Source: Candidatus Freyarchaeum deiterrae
Lineage (GTDB): Archaea; Asgardarchaeota; Jordiarchaeia; Jordiarchaeales; Jordiarchaeaceae
DNA: 64,000 bases
Reading direction: 5' to 3'
Assembly (NCBI GenBank): GCA_037305845.1
Contig: CP147778.1
Coordinates: 2,272,001-2,336,000, forward strand
Made by a program: the position numbers and the translations under genes. Below are positions 181 to 15,742 of the stretch, piece by piece (positions within the stretch are counted from its first letter, which is position 1; every line of letters starts with the position of its first letter). Below the pieces are notes generated by a model. That model was not told the origin of the DNA. It did not search any database and saw nothing but the letters and a program-made list of their open reading frames with translations.

Positions 181-1248
181 CTATCCGTATATACGGCTTA
201 TTTCTCTTTTTCTAGTCTCTATGAATTCGATAAATTCTTCTAGTGAGGGATCCTCCTCAGCCTCTTCAGAAACTAATTCCGCCATACTGATTAATGAAGC
301 TGCTACATGTGTACGAGCAGGCTCAGATTTTATTTCAGGCTTAATAAGCGATACTATTCTTTTTTCGAAGTCTTTTAACGTAAGAACCTTATCCACAAGT
401 AACATAAAAGATTCTGTTATTCCCTTCTCTAATTCCTGTTTCTCATCCAATACTCCATTCGCTGCAAGATTTTTAAGCGCGGGGCTCACAATATCCCTCC
501 TAAACCAATCAAAGAGTACACCCTTTTTACTGGAAGGTGGAAGAAAGCTTGAAACAGGGGAACTAATGGTTTTTGGTTCTTTCTTAGCGTATTCCGCCAC
601 TTTATTAGTATTTAAAGTTTTAATAGTTTCCATCGCAGCTAGTATTAGAGAGGTCACCCCTAAAACAACTTCTCTCCTACTGTAGTGTTCTAACATTTTT
701 TTAAGAGCCTGTGAAGTTTCTTCAAAAGAAACGCCCCCCGATATAAACGATTTAAAAAGCTCCAAAATCATACCTCTTGTCTCAAGAGCTTCACTAAAGC
801 TAACACTATCCAGAGTTAAAATTCGATACGCCGAGTCTAAAACCTGTTTATCAAACCATCTCACCACTATATACTCCTCTGTTAACCTCTTCAGATCTTC
901 TGGAACAAGTTTCTCCTCGGTATCTTCTAAAGCGCTACATAGTTGCGAGGCGAAGGTTTCAAAAACTGAAGATACGTAAGCACGTAGCGTTTCATCCAGT
1001 TTAAGCCTTGATAACATCTTATCGACGTTTTTTTGAAACTGGGATTTGGAACCTTTTCTTTCTAAGTAGTTTTTGAAATGTGGGAATATTTCATCCTTCA
1101 TTAGTTGGGATTCTTCAGGAGTCAGATTAGTTGTGATGTTGTCTAGAACACCGAAAACTACATAGTCAAAAAACTCTCTTAAAATTTTCAAATTTTTTTC
1201 CGAATCAAAAATGGCGACCATGGTTGGCTTCACCGGAGGGTCATTCAA
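181..1248 (-). CDS. Hypothetical helical protein (355 aa)
   Basis: Long ORF overlapping the ATPase stop (translational coupling). No family recognised. Confidence 0.75.
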   Translation of the reverse strand: MNDPPVKPTMVAIFDSEKNLKILREFFDYVVFGVLDNITTNLTPEESQLMKDEIFPHFKNYLERKGSKSQFQKNVDKMLSRLKLDETLRAYVSSVFETFASQLCSALEDTEEKLVPEDLKRLTEEYIVVRWFDKQVLDSAYRILTLDSVSFSEALETRGMILELFKSFISGGVSFEETSQALKKMLEHYSRREVVLGVTSLILAAMETIKTLNTNKVAEYAKKEPKTISSPVSSFLPPSSKKGVLFDWFRRDIVSPALKNLAANGVLDEKQELEKGITESFMLLVDKVLTLKDFEKRIVSLIKPEIKSEPARTHVAASLISMAELVSEEAEEDPSLEEFIEFIETRKREISRIYG

Positions 1249-4200
1249 TTAGTGATCTTTGCAGCTGCTCAATTTTTTCAATGGTTTTTCTTTTTAGAAA
1301 AATGTATTCGTCCTCAGCCATCCTGCCTAATTCATAGTATTCCTGCAAACTCTTTAGATATTTGTTGAATTTCTGTATCTCCTTAATGCTTTTTTCCTGT
1401 TCTATCTGCTTGTTAGTTTTCTCCTCTATCTCTGGTGTTTCCGTTTTCATAACCACTGGTGCTTCTAAAGGTTCCTGAAGTTCTGGTTCAATGTTTTCCT
1501 CGGCTTTAATACTGGGTCTGGGTGGTGGAGTGGGTAATTCCGGAAGTTTTTCAACCTTGGCTTTCTCTAGTAACTGTTTGGGTTTCGGCTTCGGATGCTT
1601 TCGGGGTGCTATTTTTAAATTATTAACTACGCTTTTTAGTGATGAAATTATACCTGTTGCTTCGCTCCTTTGAGCTGATGTAGATAAAATAAGAATTACT
1701 GTACTATCCTCGGTTTCTACAACTCCTAATGAAACCCGCGATTTGTCCTTGGAGCCTAAAATCACCGGTACACCCTTTGCAGCGTTTATTTGAGGTTGCC
1801 ATCCATCTTCCTTTAATTTGCTATAAACATCACGGATAACTTCAACGCTATCCGCTTGTGACAATATTTTTTCGACGGCGGTTTCCATTTTTGGGACTGG
1901 ATACAAATGATTGTAGAATCCATAGTCCAAAACCCGTTTTATGTAATTAGCGGCTAAATCGTTTGATAAACCGAGTACTGGTGGAGAAGGAATTGTTATA
2001 TCTGGGGCTATTTCAACCACTTCTTCTTCTACTACTACCCCCTCCGGAGACTCTGTGGCTTCTGTTTCGGATACTTTTTCTATTTTCTCAGTGGTCTCCT
2101 CAATTTTTTCCGGAGTAACGATAGATTTCGATGGAGTTGATGCAAGTTCCTCAACCATTTTGGGAAGCGCTTCCCGACCGGAATGCTGACTTAGTCTCGG
2201 CCTGATTTTAACCACGAGGGCACGGCTACTAGTGATTGATTCGTCTGAAACAATCGTGGTTCCAATTGGAATATTACGCAGAAATCCTGAGTCCTTTATC
2301 TCCTCAGGAATCTCTTTAGGTGATCTCTTTGTAAAAGCAATAATGTCTGGTTCATATGACAAATAATGTGTTATCAGTATATCTATTTGAGATAAAACTC
2401 GATTGTCTGTAGCTGAGGGTTGCTGGGTTACCAGTACCAAGCCACAACCCGGTTTTCTTCCGAGCTTGGTAAACTCGATTAGGGGATCAGAGGCTGCGGT
2501 GACCCCTCTGGAAGGAACGAGTAAGTGTGCTTCATCAATCATCAACCAGGTCACTGGAATCTCCGCTTCAACTTTCTCATTTGATGCTTCTCTCAGTTGG
2601 GCGGCTTCCTCTGTTCTTGAAATCTGTAACCTCACCCTGAGAATTCTTCGCGCCAGTATGCCAATAACTAGAGCACGCAAGCTATCATCTAGATTGCTTA
2701 CATCTATAACAGATATTTGATTTGGAACTGCCAATTGCATTAAGCTGGTTCCTTTATCTGAGAAAATTCCCCACTGTTTTGCCGAAGAGAATCTCGCAAC
2801 AAACGCTCTTCGTGTATCGCGTCTAAACCCTTTATCTTCGGATATAATCTCCGAAGAAGTTTCAACACATTTAATTAAATCATCTATAGTGTAGATGTCT
2901 CCCTTACCCGTAATGTTTAACTCTTGGTCATCGGTCATAGCCTTGTAGCCGTTTTTAACTTTTTCAATAACCTGTTCAGTTAAAAGGCCTAACGTGCTAA
3001 ATCTATCTATACTAAAGGTATGACACCAATCATCGGCCGATAGCTCCGAGGGCTTTAACGAGAAGGCGGCGTCTTTCGTTTGTTCTGGAACTCTATCATA
3101 GAAGCCTATAGGGACAAAAACCTTTACGTTACTAAAACCCTTAGTTGTGAGTTCCCATTTTTCAAGTGTTTCTAACTCTCTTTTATCCCAATTGGGGTAC
3201 TTCATGCTCCAAAATATTCCCATAGGGTCAACAATAATCGTCGCAATTCCTAATTCTGACTCCGCCAACTCTTCTGCGATAACACCCATAGTATAAGATT
3301 TTCCAGATCCTCTATGACCGCTTATAAATATGACATGGGGAGTCACTCCATCTAAGAGAACTTTACAACCAAGTAAGCCGTTATCTTCACTCCTTTTCTC
3401 TCCCACGCGGCCAATGTACATTGTTCCTTTACAGCCTAATTTAGTCTGGGTCACTTTGCTTCTTCCCAAAATAACCGATTCACCTAAACTATCCATAAGT
3501 ACACTAATTGGAGTATCCACTATTGTTGGTGATTCAACACTAGTACCTTTTTCAAAGTTTATTATACCTGCTTCACCATTAATGTAGGCTAGTGCTCGCC
3601 ACAAATCTTTCAAATTGTTCGGATCAGTTTGTTCGGCTATATGCTTTCTAAGATTAGGCTGTTTAGGGTATCTATCAGCATCAAAACCTGACAAGTCCCA
3701 TAATAGAAAATCAACAGTTTCTTTATTTGAGAACCCATTGTAGGGTTTTACTGCATTCAAAGCTTTTTCCAGGTATTCCATCCTATCGGTGGCCATGAGC
3801 AGAAGGAGAAATACCTCAACGCGTTTATCAACATCAATTAGGCTTACTAGTTCAACCATCTTGTCAAGAAGTTTATCATCCGCGTTGTATCTGTAACCTT
3901 CGTACAGAATTTTTATAATTTGGAAGTCTGGTGATTCCTGAGTCGAAGCGTATCTGACAGCGGAATCCAGAGATTTTTGAATCTCCCCCTTTTCGGTTTC
4001 TTTTAATATGGTTCGGAAGGCGTGAACGATTGAAGCAGCAGCTTCGTTGTCAATTTCGCCAGAGTCCGAAATCCAAGCTCCAGAATCTGACTGAATAGAA
4101 ACCAGTTGTCCAACGAGGCTGTCCACTTGTTCTAGAAAAGTTTTGTTTCCAGTAACCCTATTTGCGATAATATAACAGTTTAAAAGGTAGGCTTTTTCTC

Positions 4201-4282
4201 TGGTGGTGACTGGTTTCGCCAGAGAGACTTTCTGTAACATGTCCACTAGTGATGAACATAAAGGTCTTCCCCTACTTAACAA
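1241..4282 (-). CDS. HerA/FtsK-like (DUF87) P-loop ATPase with N-terminal helical domain and SHOCT/CdvA-like C-terminal tail
   Basis: Walker A GHRGSGKS, Walker B LMIDEAH, GRKPG arginine finger and VTQQPS motif. Tail LQEYYELGRMAEDEYIFLKRK. Confidence 0.85.
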   Translation of the reverse strand: MLSRGRPLCSSLVDMLQKVSLAKPVTTREKAYLLNCYIIANRVTGNKTFLEQVDSLVGQLVSIQSDSGAWISDSGEIDNEAAASIVHAFRTILKETEKGEIQKSLDSAVRYASTQESPDFQIIKILYEGYRYNADDKLLDKMVELVSLIDVDKRVEVFLLLLMATDRMEYLEKALNAVKPYNGFSNKETVDFLLWDLSGFDADRYPKQPNLRKHIAEQTDPNNLKDLWRALAYINGEAGIINFEKGTSVESPTIVDTPISVLMDSLGESVILGRSKVTQTKLGCKGTMYIGRVGEKRSEDNGLLGCKVLLDGVTPHVIFISGHRGSGKSYTMGVIAEELAESELGIATIIVDPMGIFWSMKYPNWDKRELETLEKWELTTKGFSNVKVFVPIGFYDRVPEQTKDAAFSLKPSELSADDWCHTFSIDRFSTLGLLTEQVIEKVKNGYKAMTDDQELNITGKGDIYTIDDLIKCVETSSEIISEDKGFRRDTRRAFVARFSSAKQWGIFSDKGTSLMQLAVPNQISVIDVSNLDDSLRALVIGILARRILRVRLQISRTEEAAQLREASNEKVEAEIPVTWLMIDEAHLLVPSRGVTAASDPLIEFTKLGRKPGCGLVLVTQQPSATDNRVLSQIDILITHYLSYEPDIIAFTKRSPKEIPEEIKDSGFLRNIPIGTTIVSDESITSSRALVVKIRPRLSQHSGREALPKMVEELASTPSKSIVTPEKIEETTEKIEKVSETEATESPEGVVVEEEVVEIAPDITIPSPPVLGLSNDLAANYIKRVLDYGFYNHLYPVPKMETAVEKILSQADSVEVIRDVYSKLKEDGWQPQINAAKGVPVILGSKDKSRVSLGVVETEDSTVILILSTSAQRSEATGIISSLKSVVNNLKIAPRKHPKPKPKQLLEKAKVEKLPELPTPPPRPSIKAEENIEPELQEPLEAPVVMKTETPEIEEKTNKQIEQEKSIKEIQKFNKYLKSLQEYYELGRMAEDEYIFLKRKTIEKIEQLQRSLIE

Positions 4283-4331
4283 GAGTGTTTCCCCACACCT
4301 TTTCTGTATTGAAATATGAAAAGAAGAAGCC

Positions 4332-4946
4332 TTAAAGTTCTTCTTTCAATTTCTTAATATCTTTTTCCAGTTCTTCAACTTTTCCGCTAGGTGCTGACGG
4401 GAGCTTTACTCCGGTTTCGACACTTATTTCTTGGTCGATCTCAGAGATAGTAGCTGCGACTTCTTGAGATGTGACTTCTGTGCTAACTGTCATCTTCTCC
4501 ATTCCAGCCTCAAGAACATCTTGACGAACGTCGAATTCTTGCATAATGCTGTCTATTTCCTCAGCGTTTTTAGCAATGTCTTCTGGGAGCTTGACAGCTT
4601 CTTCGAGTCCCTTAAGGGCTTCTCTTACACCCGATATTGTGCTGGCGACGTCAGCTACGGATTCGCTCTGACGGAGTCTAATTACCATACCCTGAATTTT
4701 GAGGCGATAAGAATCTGTTGCTAAAGCCCACTTATTGTACCTTATATAATGTTCGGCGTACATTTTGGCTCCTTCGGCGTTTCCTCTAAGCCTATATTTC
4801 TTAGCATCTTCTCTGTTTTTTCTGGCTTCTCTCTCCAGCTGTTTTTTCTGGTATTCAAGGCGGCGAGTGAAAACATCAAGTTTGTAAACCACTTCTTTTA
4901 TCTTCGGTCCTCCCTTAAGCCAACTTGAGAATTTTCTAAGCGCCAT
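4332..4946 (-). CDS. ESCRT-III (Snf7 family, Vps2/24/46 class, CHMP1-like)
   Basis: GNAEGAKMYAEHYIR resembles CHMP1 GNMEVARIHAENAIR. Basic N-half, acidic C-half, MIM2-like LPSAP and MIM1-like terminal helix. Start taken at ATG 4946. Confidence 0.85.
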   Translation of the reverse strand: MALRKFSSWLKGGPKIKEVVYKLDVFTRRLEYQKKQLEREARKNREDAKKYRLRGNAEGAKMYAEHYIRYNKWALATDSYRLKIQGMVIRLRQSESVADVASTISGVREALKGLEEAVKLPEDIAKNAEEIDSIMQEFDVRQDVLEAGMEKMTVSTEVTSQEVAATISEIDQEISVETGVKLPSAPSGKVEELEKDIKKLKEEL

Positions 4947-5078
4947 ACAAAACACCAATCCCTTTTTTGATATTTTTCTAATTCTTTATTTTACCTAATA
5001 GAAGATTCCAGATGGTAGCATATAATACTTTCTTAATGTGCATTCCTCTGTTTTAAAAAGCAGTGAAAATTAAGCCGT

Positions 5079-6819: not shown

Positions 6820-7129
6820 TTGCCGCAAAAACGTAAAAGTCGTGGAAGAGCCAAAGGAAGCGCTGGAAAGAAATCACTCGTCCAATGCTCCGGGTGTGGG
6901 GCCATGGTGCCTCGCGATGTCAATTTGCTCAATTGAGCAAGTACGCGATAAGGCTAAGCGTGTGACCCGATACACCACATTGGTTGATCCAATGATCGGT
7001 CGAGAATTAAGACAGCAGGGAGCATACATTCCAAGAACTAGAGAAATCAAGGTATACTGCATCAACTGTGCTGTTCACAGAAAATTGACTCGGGTAAGAC
7101 CAAAGGAAGATAGAAGAGACAGAAGATAA
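6820..7129 (+). CDS. rps26e: 30S ribosomal protein S26e, two exons (6820-6918 and 6950-7129), 92 aa after splicing
   Basis: TTG at 6820 gives MPQKRKSRGRAKGSAGKKSLVQCSGCGAMVPRD. The downstream frame gives KAKRVTRY...YCINCAVHRKLTRVRPKEDRR. Removing 31 nt restores the conserved PRDKA motif. Confidence 0.93.
6919..6949 (+). other. Putative 31-nt bulge-helix-bulge mRNA intron in rps26e
   Basis: GCCT-CGCG-[ATG]-stem-loop-CGCG-[ATA]-AGGC. Cutting after the 2nd nt of each bulge gives CCT CGC GAT AAG GCT. Confidence 0.88.
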
Positions 7130-12598: not shown

Positions 12599-13926
12599 TT
12601 GCGCTTTTTTTCGGACTTGCACATACATAGCAAGTATAGTAGGGCCACCAGTGATAAAATGGATATTGAGAATTTGATAAAGCATGCCAAGGTTAAGGGA
12701 CTAAACCTGCTAAGTTCTGGAGACCTATCTCATCCAAAATGGTTATCCGAGTTGAAAAACAAACTGATAGAGATCGAGGATTCGGGATTTTTCAGGGCTG
12801 AGGGCGAAAATGATGTTTTCTTTGTTCTTTGCACCGAAGTGTCAACTGTCTTTAGACATGAAGGAACTTCAAAGAAGATTCATCATCTTTTGTTTGCTCC
12901 TAATTTCGAAGTAGCTGATAAAATGAACGAATTTTTAGCGAAATTCGGGAATCTGAAAGCAGACGGTAGACCAATGTTGAATATTACCCCCGCAGAACTC
13001 GTTGAGAATCTTATAAATATTGATGAAAGAATATTAATCGTTCCTGCACATTTATGGACCAGTTGGTTTGGTGCATTAGGTGAAAATGGTTTCGACAGTT
13101 TAGAAGACTGTTACGAAGATCAGCTAAAGCACATCTACTCTGTGGAAACAGGTTTATCCTCTGACCCGGCTATGAACTGGAGACTGAGCAAATTGGACAA
13201 ATACGTTTTAATGAGTAACAGCGACGCTCACAGCCCATGGGATTGGAGGCTTGGTAGGGAAGCAAACGTTTACGAACTAAAATCTCCATCCTACCGAGAA
13301 TTAACCGAGGCTATAAAAACAAAAGACAGGGAAAAAATTCTTATGACCATCGAAGTTGACCCCGCCTATGGAAACTAATTCGAAGTGAGTCCGAGTTAGC
13401 CATAAAATATCACTTCGATGGTCACCGCGCAGATAAACATCAAAGCGGTACGGACGTATACATGTCTCCAAAAGAGGCTATTAAAATAAGTAACATTTGT
13501 CCAATCTGTAGAAAGAAAATGACTATCGGAGTGCTACACAGAGTAGAAGAATTAGCTGATCGAGATGAAAATTATTTACCCAAAAATTATGTACCCTTCA
13601 AAAGATTAATTCCTTTGACAGAACTCATTGCGGCTGCTATGAGGATTGATGACTTGTACTCTAAGCAGATTTGGGAGATGTACTACCGACTTGTGAATTC
13701 TTTCGGTAACGAGTACAATATTTTAATTAATGTTCCCAAACCCGATATTGAGGCGGTGGTGGATCAGAAAATTGCTGATTTAATTATCAATAACCGAGAA
13801 GGAAGACTAAAGATTAGACCAGGTTTCGATGGGGTGTATGGAAAAGTTGTTTTAGACGAAAAAGAAGCTAAAGGTAAAGGCTTTAAACAGCTGGAGCAGA
13901 AAAGTCTGGATGGATATTTTAAATAA
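12599..13926 (+). CDS. EndoQ/TIGR00375-family PHP-domain endonuclease, two exons (12599-13373 and 13406-13926), 431 aa after splicing
   Basis: DLHIHSKYSRATS, ETGLSSD and NSDAHS motifs. The joined sequence reads EVDPAYGKYHFDGHR...CPICRKKMTIGVLHRVEELADR...PGFDGVYG. Confidence 0.9.
13374..13405 (+). other. Putative 32-nt bulge-helix-bulge mRNA intron in the EndoQ-family gene
   Basis: ATGG-[AAA]-CTAATTCG-loop-CGAGTTAG-CCAT-[AAA]. Canonical cuts give TAT GGA AAA TAT CAC (YGKYH). A 13-bp perfect exon-exon stem pairs 13344-13356 with 13412-13424. Confidence 0.88.
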
Positions 13927-14795: not shown

Positions 14796-15491
14796 CTATT
14801 CCTCCGAAGCAAACAGCTTCTTTAATCTACCAAGCTCTGTCATCATCGCATTCCTAAGATCCGTAATAGAGCCCGCATCCTGTTGAACCGCAGCTCCTAT
14901 CGCAGCCGAAGCGGCTACACCAGGTGCACCCATACTCGGCGGTCCACCTACTGCTGGTGTTCTACCCGCTACCGGCGGCATACCTGCTGGTGGTCTGCCT
15001 CCCGCTGATGGCGGTCCACCTATACTTGGCGGTGCGCCTGCTGATGGCGGCATACCTGCTGGTGGTCTGCCTCCCGCTGATGGCGGTGCGCCTGCTGATG
15101 GCGGCATACCTGCTGGTGGTCTGCCTCCCGCTGATGGGGGCATACCTGCCGCAGTTGCTGGTTGAGTGCCGGTTTTGGTAGAGAACATACCAAATACATC
15201 ATCTGGTGCGGTTCTACTACTTAATGATTCTAGTGGGACGGATGATGATGACGATACTATTGTTTCCTGCGTTCCCATTGCTGTAGATTGAGGCATAGCA
15301 AGTTCGGAAGCTCCGAGGTCGACCTCCATTCCTTTCGCCGCTTTTGCGAGGTCTTTTTGTAGACTTTCTACCGATTTAGAGTAGGCTTCTTGTGCTTTCT
15401 TTAGGGATTCGATATACTTATTAGAAAAACTGAGCAGGGAGGAACAAGCCTTTTGAACGAACCGTAATAGTTTCTCTTCTTTCTTGGGCAA
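14796..15491 (-). CDS. Hypothetical protein: coiled coil, Pro/Gly-rich repeats and C-terminal helix with LKK
   Basis: 231-aa ORF with a GAGG SD-like site. Repeats AGMPPS/AGGRPP/AGAPPS. Confidence 0.75.
   Translation of the reverse strand: MPKKEEKLLRFVQKACSSLLSFSNKYIESLKKAQEAYSKSVESLQKDLAKAAKGMEVDLGASELAMPQSTAMGTQETIVSSSSSVPLESLSSRTAPDDVFGMFSTKTGTQPATAAGMPPSAGGRPPAGMPPSAGAPPSAGGRPPAGMPPSAGAPPSIGGPPSAGGRPPAGMPPVAGRTPAVGGPPSMGAPGVAASAAIGAAVQQDAGSITDLRNAMMTELGRLKKLFASEE
14974..15137. repeat. Coding tandem repeat with an 18-bp basic unit
   Basis: Exact 38-mer GGCGGCATACCTGCTGGTGGTCTGCCTCCCGCTGATGG at 14974, 15046 and 15100. Confidence 0.9.
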
Positions 15492-15742
15492 GTTTTAACC
15501 CTCTTATTATTTGTTTTTATATTGATGTTTCTTGTTTTTTTAATTCCCTATTATTAAGATATGTGTAACCCTTTTTAAAAACTCTTCGGCTAATGATTTT
15601 TACATTAGATGAAAAGTTTATTAGAGTATCGAACCTTTTAATTTTTTCACAGCTAATTTTTAATTTTTCTCTAATATTATATTCGCCTCGGTTTGTTATA
15701 TCTCTATTGTCTGAATTTTTATGTATATCTAGTTGGGTTTTG

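What the first reader, a model, noticed from the sequence alone, without database searches (positions are those of the whole stretch)
6909..6954. BHB intron in ribosomal protein S26e
Seen: outer helix GCCT(6909-12)/AGGC(6951-54), central helix CGCG(6913-16)/CGCG(6944-47), bulges ATG(6917-19) and ATA(6948-50). The inner hairpin includes the perfect palindrome TTGCTCAATTGAGCAA (6925-40). Removing 6919-6949 gives VPRD|KAKR and a 92-aa S26e. Unspliced mRNA stops at TGA 6934-36 after 38 aa. Additional exon-exon pairs: CGGGT 6891-95/ACCCG 6965-69 and CCAATG 6882-87/CATTGG 6978-83. Both exons retain the zinc-binding Cys motifs, which argues against a pseudogene. The ORF track mis-annotates the N-terminus.
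Basis: partly seen in the sequence, partly recalled or inferred. Interest (0 to 1): 0.92.

Follow-up and report, generated by a model that had tools for sequence, protein, structure and literature searches.

The report
tRNA-type intron in Asgard rps26e gene
The only gene for ribosomal protein eS26 in a soil Asgard archaeon is broken by a 31-base insert shaped like a tRNA intron, one of at least 14 such inserts in its protein genes, so this microbe very probably splices many messenger RNAs with its tRNA-splicing enzymes, something documented so far for only two archaeal mRNAs.

Summary
Confirmed. The genome is Ca. Freyarchaeum deiterrae. Its single rps26e gene carries a 31-nt frameshifting insert (6919-6949). 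Cutting after the 2nd nt of each bulge restores VPRD|KAK and a 92-aa eS26, 78-80% identical to five intronless congeners. A second assembly has the same insert.

The motif is relaxed (hBH/BHL-like): 4-bp exon helix, 4-bp central helix, only 1 bp directly under the 5' bulge. A motif-free homology census found 17 ORF-breaking inserts of 20-80 nt; 11 have a perfect central helix in exact BHB register (null mean 1.5, mirror 1). Several are kept across the genus. Two EndA paralogues and RtcB are present.

Best reading (0.88): an EndA/RtcB-spliced mRNA intron, gained on this lineage, in a genome-wide system.

New point: the insert ends in an exact 6-nt repeat (CGCGAT) on a palindromic 4-mer, and self-pairing 4-mers are enriched at such introns, hinting at gain by target-site duplication. 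The scan noted similar introns before, in this genome and in rps26e of another Asgard genome. I found no paper reporting Asgard mRNA introns.

The parts
6820..6918 (+). rps26e exon 1 (TTG start, 33 codons, first CxxC, ends VPRD)
   Evidence: Pfam PF01283 1-33; start matches relatives
6919..6949 (+). 31-nt BHB/BHL-type intron
   Evidence: absent from relatives; found motif-free; present in a second assembly
6950..7129 (+). rps26e exon 2 (KAK to stop, second CxxC)
   Evidence: Pfam PF01283 38-95
6909..6912 (+). exon-exon helix h, 5' strand GCCT (pairs with 6951-6954)
   Evidence: pair probability 0.98-0.99 for three pairs, 0.42 for U6912-A6951
6951..6954 (+). exon-exon helix h, 3' strand AGGC
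6913..6918 (+). central helix 5' strand CGCG plus bulge AT; first copy of the CGCGAT direct repeat; predicted cut after 6918
6944..6949 (+). central helix 3' strand CGCG plus bulge AT; second copy of CGCGAT; predicted cut after 6949
6923..6942 (+). intron hairpin, 8 bp with 4-nt loop, containing the 16-nt palindrome 6925-6940 and the in-frame TGA 6934-6936
6892..6906 (+). extended exon-exon helix, 5' side (pairs with 6959-6976)
   Evidence: same in four fold windows, C6903-G6962 p 0.96-0.98; flanks raise outer-helix probability beyond synonymous shuffles
6959..6976 (+). extended exon-exon helix, 3' side
6917..7129 (+). 70-aa ORF from the AUG in the 5' bulge, read through the intron in the exon-2 frame; the product held in the NCBI-derived set, probably a mis-call
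13374..13405 (+). second mRNA intron in the window: 32-nt BHB in a gene the scan's notes call EndoQ-family (removal restores PAYG|KYHFDGHR)
   Evidence: same site in L234 (32 nt) and G006 (29 nt, one compensatory pair, one mismatch)

Best explanation
The insert is an archaeal-type intron in the rps26e mRNA. The transcript folds into an exon-exon stem, a 4-bp CGCG/CGCG helix and two staggered bulges above an intron hairpin (DNA shown, fold computed). The two-subunit tRNA-splicing endonuclease EndA cuts after U6918 and U6949, and RtcB joins the exons, leaving a 7-nt loop on the exon stem and an open 92-codon frame (inferred from the established EndA rule). Unspliced mRNA gives a 38-aa dead-end peptide. 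The intron was gained on the branch to this species and is one of at least 14 such introns in its protein genes. No specific regulatory role is shown; the likeliest status is a tolerated, near-neutral intron that makes eS26 supply depend on EndA/RtcB.
For: Single locus in a closed genome that its authors curated and checked with long reads (PMC11291895; tRNA coordinates match). A Logan contig of run SRR15677223 is identical over 3953 bp with the insert. Relatives lack it and keep (V/I)PRDKAK; eS26 is found in 85 of 90 high-quality Asgard genomes searched. Both exons show pN far below pS against the closest relative: 0.10/0.47 and 0.055/0.59. Motif-free census: 11 of 17 ORF-breaking 20-80-nt inserts have a 4/4 central helix in BHB register (mirror 1; null mean 1.5, max 8 in 5000), and 0 at offsets +/-1. 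The rtcB, ahcY-a and porA-like inserts are kept in 5, 5 and 4 congeners with a fixed central helix and a varying hairpin. Size and geometry match the genome's tRNA introns (14-47 nt), 14 of 38 of which also have 0-1 bp under the bulge. Two EndA paralogues and RtcB are present; two-subunit EndA cleaves non-canonical introns (PMC5829648 abstract). Native exon codons stabilise the motif.
Against: This intron is seen in one species only, so there is no covariation evidence at this site. Its inner helix is among the weakest of the set, and the exact BHB register is one of two near-equal conformers. The pN/pS signal includes time before the insertion. In S. solfataricus eS26 is sub-stoichiometric (PMC11698992), so essentiality cannot be assumed.
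Confidence: 0.88

Rival explanations
1. Recent inactivating insertion: rps26e is a young pseudogene and the cell does without eS26.
For: The insert is confined to this species and has a 6-nt direct repeat typical of insertions. Archaeal eS26 binds loosely and is absent from other archaeal phyla (PMC11698992).
Against: Exact BHB geometry shared with 10 more ORF-breaking inserts and with tRNA introns; no second lesion in either exon; motif-stabilising exon codons; eS26 near-universal in the Asgard genomes searched.
Confidence: 0.04
2. No splicing: the protein is made as a 70-aa form from AUG 6917, as two pieces, or by a +1 ribosomal frameshift inside the insert.
For: The exon-2 frame is open through the insert from AUG 6917, puts a Cys in the register of the second zinc ligand, and has GGUG 7 nt upstream (anti-SD pairing -5.2 against -4.9 kcal/mol for the true start).
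Against: That AUG is the 5' bulge and its SD-like site is buried in the exon stem. The 70-aa form lacks the conserved basic N-tail and the first Cys. Ten stop-free codons are common by chance (my estimate, about one in two). No Rfam frameshift element lies at the site.
Confidence: 0.04
3. The insert is removed by another route, such as precise DNA-level deletion between the CGCGAT repeats in part of the population, or a non-EndA nuclease.
For: A hairpin flanked by an exact direct repeat is a classic deletion substrate (own knowledge); seven registers give the same product.
Against: Only 2 of 13 inserts in this genome have an exact 6-nt repeat, while 11 share the full BHB helix. Both assemblies carry the insert.
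Confidence: 0.03
4. Assembly or sequencing artefact.
For: The Logan contig may come from the same site or sample, so it is not fully independent.
Against: Curated genome checked with long reads; identical second assembly; the insert has no second copy in the genome; sister inserts recur in independent congener assemblies.
Confidence: 0.01

Closest known systems
cbf5 pre-mRNA intron of Sulfolobales and Desulfurococcales (Watanabe 2002; Yokobori 2009, PMC2738675)
   Same: Short intron in a coding sequence, unconventional BHB, cut predicted between the 2nd and 3rd nt of each bulge, hetero-oligomeric EndA, patchy presence among relatives.
   Different: Different gene, phylum and site. cbf5 splicing was shown by cDNA; this one is not. 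cbf5 is a lone, old intron; this one looks young and is one of at least 14 in one genome.
BHB intron in the 5' UTR of HVO_1309, Haloferax volcanii (Schwarz 2020, PMC7714728)
   Same: mRNA substrate of the tRNA-splicing endonuclease.
   Different: Lies in an untranslated region, not the reading frame; euryarchaeal host.
Non-canonical tRNA introns of Freyarchaeia and Atabeyarchaeia (Valentin-Alvarado 2024, PMC11291895; Goswami 2026, bioRxiv 10.64898/2026.10.13.758758)
   Same: Same genome, size range, 4-bp helix geometry and frequent weak inner helix; repeated terminal-branch gains.
   Different: Host is an mRNA. No tRNA intron resembles it in sequence. In the passages I read, those papers treat tRNA introns only; 'mRNA' does not occur in the preprint.

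Membership tests
Archaeal EndA-spliced (BHB/BHL) intron | 4-bp central helix between exon-1 end and intron end | tested here: met
   CGCG/CGCG, p 0.84-0.90
Archaeal EndA-spliced (BHB/BHL) intron | 3-nt 3' bulge closed by an exon-exon helix | tested here: met
   AUA 6948-50 on GCCU/AGGC; competes with a one-base-shifted form, p 0.42 against 0.55
Canonical hBHBh' motif | 3-nt 5' bulge closed by at least 2 stacked intron pairs | tested here: not met
   one pair (p 0.15), then a bulge; so relaxed hBH/BHL-like, as in 14 of 38 tRNA introns of this genome
Archaeal EndA-spliced (BHB/BHL) intron | Cutting after the 2nd nt of each bulge restores the host gene | tested here: met
   92-aa eS26 colinear with relatives; register degenerate over 7 positions
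Archaeal EndA-spliced (BHB/BHL) intron | EndA able to cut relaxed motifs, and RtcB, encoded in the genome | tested here: met
   two PF01974 genes, one with the Tyr/His/Lys triad and one lacking the His (triad from own knowledge); RtcB; substrate range not measured
Archaeal EndA-spliced (BHB/BHL) intron | Spliced RNA, excised intron or in vitro cleavage observed | not testable with these tools
Archaeal EndA-spliced (BHB/BHL) intron | Compensatory change across species at this site | tested here: inconclusive
   no second species with this intron found; seen at other sites
Group I or II intron, or multicopy mobile element | Ribozyme core, Rfam match or further copies | tested here: not met
   31 nt, no Rfam match at the site, single copy at up to 6 mismatches
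Ribosomal protein eS26 (PF01283) | Profile match and two CxxC motifs | tested here: met
   both exons above cut-off; CSGC and CINC present; an intronless relative matches solved archaeal eS26 at E 1.5e-24

The most novel reading that the evidence does not exclude
Jordarchaeales/Freyarchaeia run routine mRNA splicing with EndA/RtcB on dozens of genes, and rps26e shows how such an intron is born: a short hairpin is inserted with a 6-nt target-site duplication at a self-pairing 4-mer, which at once creates the central helix and both bulges. Support: exact repeats at rps26e (CGCGAT) and ahcY-b (CCGGAA), both absent from congeners, and at a G006 site (CTGGAA, pairing through two G-U). The rps26e 3' bulge is AU like its exon copy, whereas the other 12 have AA. 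Self-pairing 4-mers occur at 10 of 22 introns against a background of 0.108 (P 4e-5), strict palindromes at 5 of 22 against 0.046 (P 0.003); both post hoc. Against: other young introns, such as the 59-nt one in the RuBisCO-like gene, lack a repeat.
Probability: 0.3. Interest if true: 0.88.

Novelty: new variant of a known kind. Interest (0 to 1): 0.72.

Why it matters
In the papers I could search, only cbf5 (coding region) and HVO_1309 (5' UTR) are known archaeal mRNA substrates of the tRNA-splicing endonuclease, and a 2026 Asgard review does not mention introns or splicing. An intron in a ribosomal-protein gene, among at least 14 in one genome and about 9 different ones in another family of the order, would mean protein-catalysed mRNA splicing is routine in close prokaryotic relatives of eukaryotes. 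It also means their gene catalogues are mis-called: this locus is on record as a 70-aa and a 95-aa protein. eS26 blocks Shine-Dalgarno pairing and favours leaderless mRNAs in Saccharolobus, so splicing efficiency could tune initiation (speculative). The repeat footprint gives a testable route for how BHB introns arrive, which a 2026 preprint calls the central open problem.

Tried and rejected
Ab initio genome scan for BHB motifs that restore an ORF, against a mirror-geometry control: no enrichment, too noisy, and it missed this site; replaced by the homology census. Exact look-up of the 70-aa ORF: none. Local templated origin of the intron body from flanking DNA: rejected (p 0.82 here, Fisher 0.56 over 23 introns). 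Copying from a tRNA intron: no match; the best hit is weak, to the 59-nt mRNA intron (p about 0.02 under one null, not pursued). The mirror control was uninformative in G006 (10 against 8), so that set rests on the individual structures. Paper searches found no report of Asgard mRNA introns; the library lacks most subscription journals.

Full report
Identity. The window is C1:2272001-2336000 of a single 3,576,204-bp contig. The length and the tRNA coordinates match the curated circular genome of Ca. Freyarchaeum deiterrae (Asgard; Freyarchaeia, also called Jordarchaeia), which its authors checked with long reads and in which 92-95% of tRNA genes carry introns (PMC11291895). The gene lies between tauE and pfkB, near snf7 and proS, in the same order as in the closest relative.

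Observation. All stated sequences and coordinates are right. From TTG 6820 the unspliced frame stops at TGA 6934-36 after 38 aa; removing 6919-6949 gives 92 aa with both CxxC motifs. There is one rps26e locus, and the insert has no second copy. Thirty Asgard loci, among them five congeners at 78-80% identity, are uninterrupted, as are three closer assemblies at 77-82% DNA identity. In the tree this gene groups, with modest support (81/88), with intronless sequences, so gain on the terminal branch is the simplest reading. A Logan contig from run SRR15677223 is identical over 3953 bp, insert included. Databases hold the locus as a 70-aa and a 95-aa mis-call; no 92-aa form is on record.

Anatomy. 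Exon helix GCCU/AGGC, central helix CGCG/CGCG, 3' bulge AU^A, 5' bulge AU^G, then one U-A pair, a bulge and an 8-bp hairpin. The central pairs have p 0.84-0.90; U6920-A6943 only 0.15; U6912 splits between A6951 (0.42) and A6948 (0.55). This is a relaxed hBH/BHL-like motif, not canonical hBHBh'. With synonymous recoding of the exons the outer helix falls from p 0.99-1.0 to a mean of 0.02-0.04, and to 0.29-0.58 even when the VPRD/KA codons are kept (at most 1% of shuffles reach the observed value), so the native flanks favour the motif. Both exons show purifying selection against relatives (pN 0.10 and 0.055, pS 0.47 and 0.59 against L234), though this includes time before the insertion.

Is it part of a system? 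An ab initio motif scan was too noisy. I then ran a motif-free census: ORFs from nearly all of G006 (same order), 400 kb of G011 and 136 kb of G005 were aligned to this genome, and insertions were located by protein score alone. Of 17 ORF-breaking inserts of 20-80 nt, 11 have a 4/4 central helix in exact BHB register; mirror geometry gives 1, and displaced positions a mean of 1.5 (max 8 in 5000). Among the 14 that bear a hairpin, 11 fit at offset 0 and none at +/-1; two more fit 3/4, and one (tyrS) was mis-sized by my method. The rps26e insert was recovered blind. The rtcB, ahcY-a and porA-like introns are kept in 5, 5 and 4 congeners with constant central helix and changing hairpin; ahcY-b, like rps26e, is absent from all five. 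A 32-nt intron at window 13374-13405 is shared with L234 and G006, with one compensatory pair. Shared introns are mostly invisible to the census, so 14 is a floor. G006 has about 9 inserts of its own in other genes; none was seen in 400 kb of G011. Of 57 published tRNA introns of this genome, 38 have a 4/4 helix at the given ends, span 14-47 nt, and 14 have 0-1 bp under the bulge, so the enzyme here must cope with motifs like this one. Two EndA paralogues, one with the catalytic triad, and RtcB are encoded. Two-subunit EndA cleaves non-canonical introns (PMC5829648), and most Asgard genomes have two paralogues.

Mechanism. Shown: the DNA, the frame restoration, the computed fold, the enzymes, and the genome-wide geometry. 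Inferred: EndA cuts after U6918 and U6949, RtcB ligates the exons into a 7-nt loop on the exon stem, and full-length eS26 is made only from spliced mRNA. Probability 0.88. Rivals: young pseudogene 0.04; translation from AUG 6917, split protein or frameshift 0.04 (the exon-2 frame is open through the insert with an SD-like GGUG, but both are buried in the stem); DNA-level deletion or another route 0.03; artefact 0.01. No regulatory role is shown. eS26 competes with the SD duplex and favours leaderless mRNAs in S. solfataricus (PMC11698992), which makes a link possible but speculative.

Origin. Exon 1 and the intron both end in CGCGAT, on a palindromic 4-mer, and three of the four closest-matching congeners in L009-L016 already carry CCT CGC GAT AAG GC at the empty site. 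A 6-nt duplication there yields the central helix and both bulges at once, and explains the AU 3' bulge where the other 12 have AA. ahcY-b and one G006 intron show the same exact repeat. Self-pairing 4-mers occur at 10 of 22 introns (background 0.108, P 4e-5) and strict palindromes at 5 of 22 (0.046, P 0.003), both post hoc. The intron body is not copied from the flanks or from a tRNA intron. The routes tested in section 2.5 of the 2026 preprint on Asgard tRNA introns do not include this one. Short direct repeats near splice sites have been claimed for all intron classes (PMC11782384), so the idea is not wholly new. The repeat also means a junction read alone cannot prove splicing.

Comparison with what is known. 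It works like the cbf5 intron of Crenarchaeota (PMC2738675). As of 2020, cbf5 and the HVO_1309 5' UTR were the only reported archaeal mRNA cases (PMC7714728). It meets the sequence-level tests for an EndA intron, fails the canonical inner-helix test, and the RNA test could not be run. Six paper searches found no report of mRNA introns in Asgard archaea. The scan's own notes list many such introns in this genome and others, including a 29-nt intron in rps26e of another Asgard genome with RNA support. I confirmed several in this genome myself. I also saw rps26e split after profile positions 35-37 in three genomes of one genus in another family, where the G188 gap implies 29 extra bases, but could not read those sequences.

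Verdict. Real, very probably spliced, gained on this lineage, and part of a many-gene mRNA splicing load not described in the papers I could search. New variant of a known kind; interest 0.72.

Noticed in passing
window 13374-13405 (+): Second mRNA intron, 32 nt, in a gene the scan's notes call EndoQ-family; same site in L234 and G006, with a compensatory A-U to C-G change in G006.
   Followed up: yes
G000:C1 1452824(-), 1876927(-), 1877066(-), 2174638(-), 1589381(-), 1145015(-), 2494680(+), 1619887(+), 1152345(+), 1715664(-), 2434719(-), 1055908(+): Twelve further ORF-breaking hairpin inserts (25-73 nt) with BHB geometry, in rtcB, ahcY (two), a RuBisCO-like gene, a porA-like gene, mvhD and others; the 3' bulge starts AA in all twelve. 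Gene names come from the peptides or the scan's notes, not from my own family searches, except rtcB.
   Followed up: partly
L237 (G000:C1:1452796-1452824): The rtcB intron here has a mismatch in the central helix (CCCG/AGGG) and 29 nt, where all five congeners have CCCG/CGGG and 30 nt.
   Followed up: partly
G006 (other family, same order): About 9 BHB-type mRNA inserts of 27-59 nt in other genes, several with exact or near 6-nt direct repeats.
   Followed up: partly
G185:C6:441732-442036, G188:C352:3633-3940, G191:C264:271-602, G337:C7:25281-25557: rps26e is split in three genomes of one genus in another Asgard family, just downstream of this site (G188 gap implies 29 nt), and at a different place in G337.
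   Followed up: partly
window 6917-6949: Read in the exon-2 frame, the intron encodes MSICSIEQVRD, placing Ser and Cys in register with exon 1's SGC; probably chance.
   Followed up: partly
window about 14800-15500 (-): A 232-codon open frame overlies a low-complexity repeat region (Pro/Ala/Gly-rich when read on the + strand).
   Followed up: no
window 1241-4958 (-): snf7 (ESCRT-III) gene next to a 1013-aa HerA/DUF87 ATPase gene; L234 has a second snf7 beyond them.
   Followed up: no
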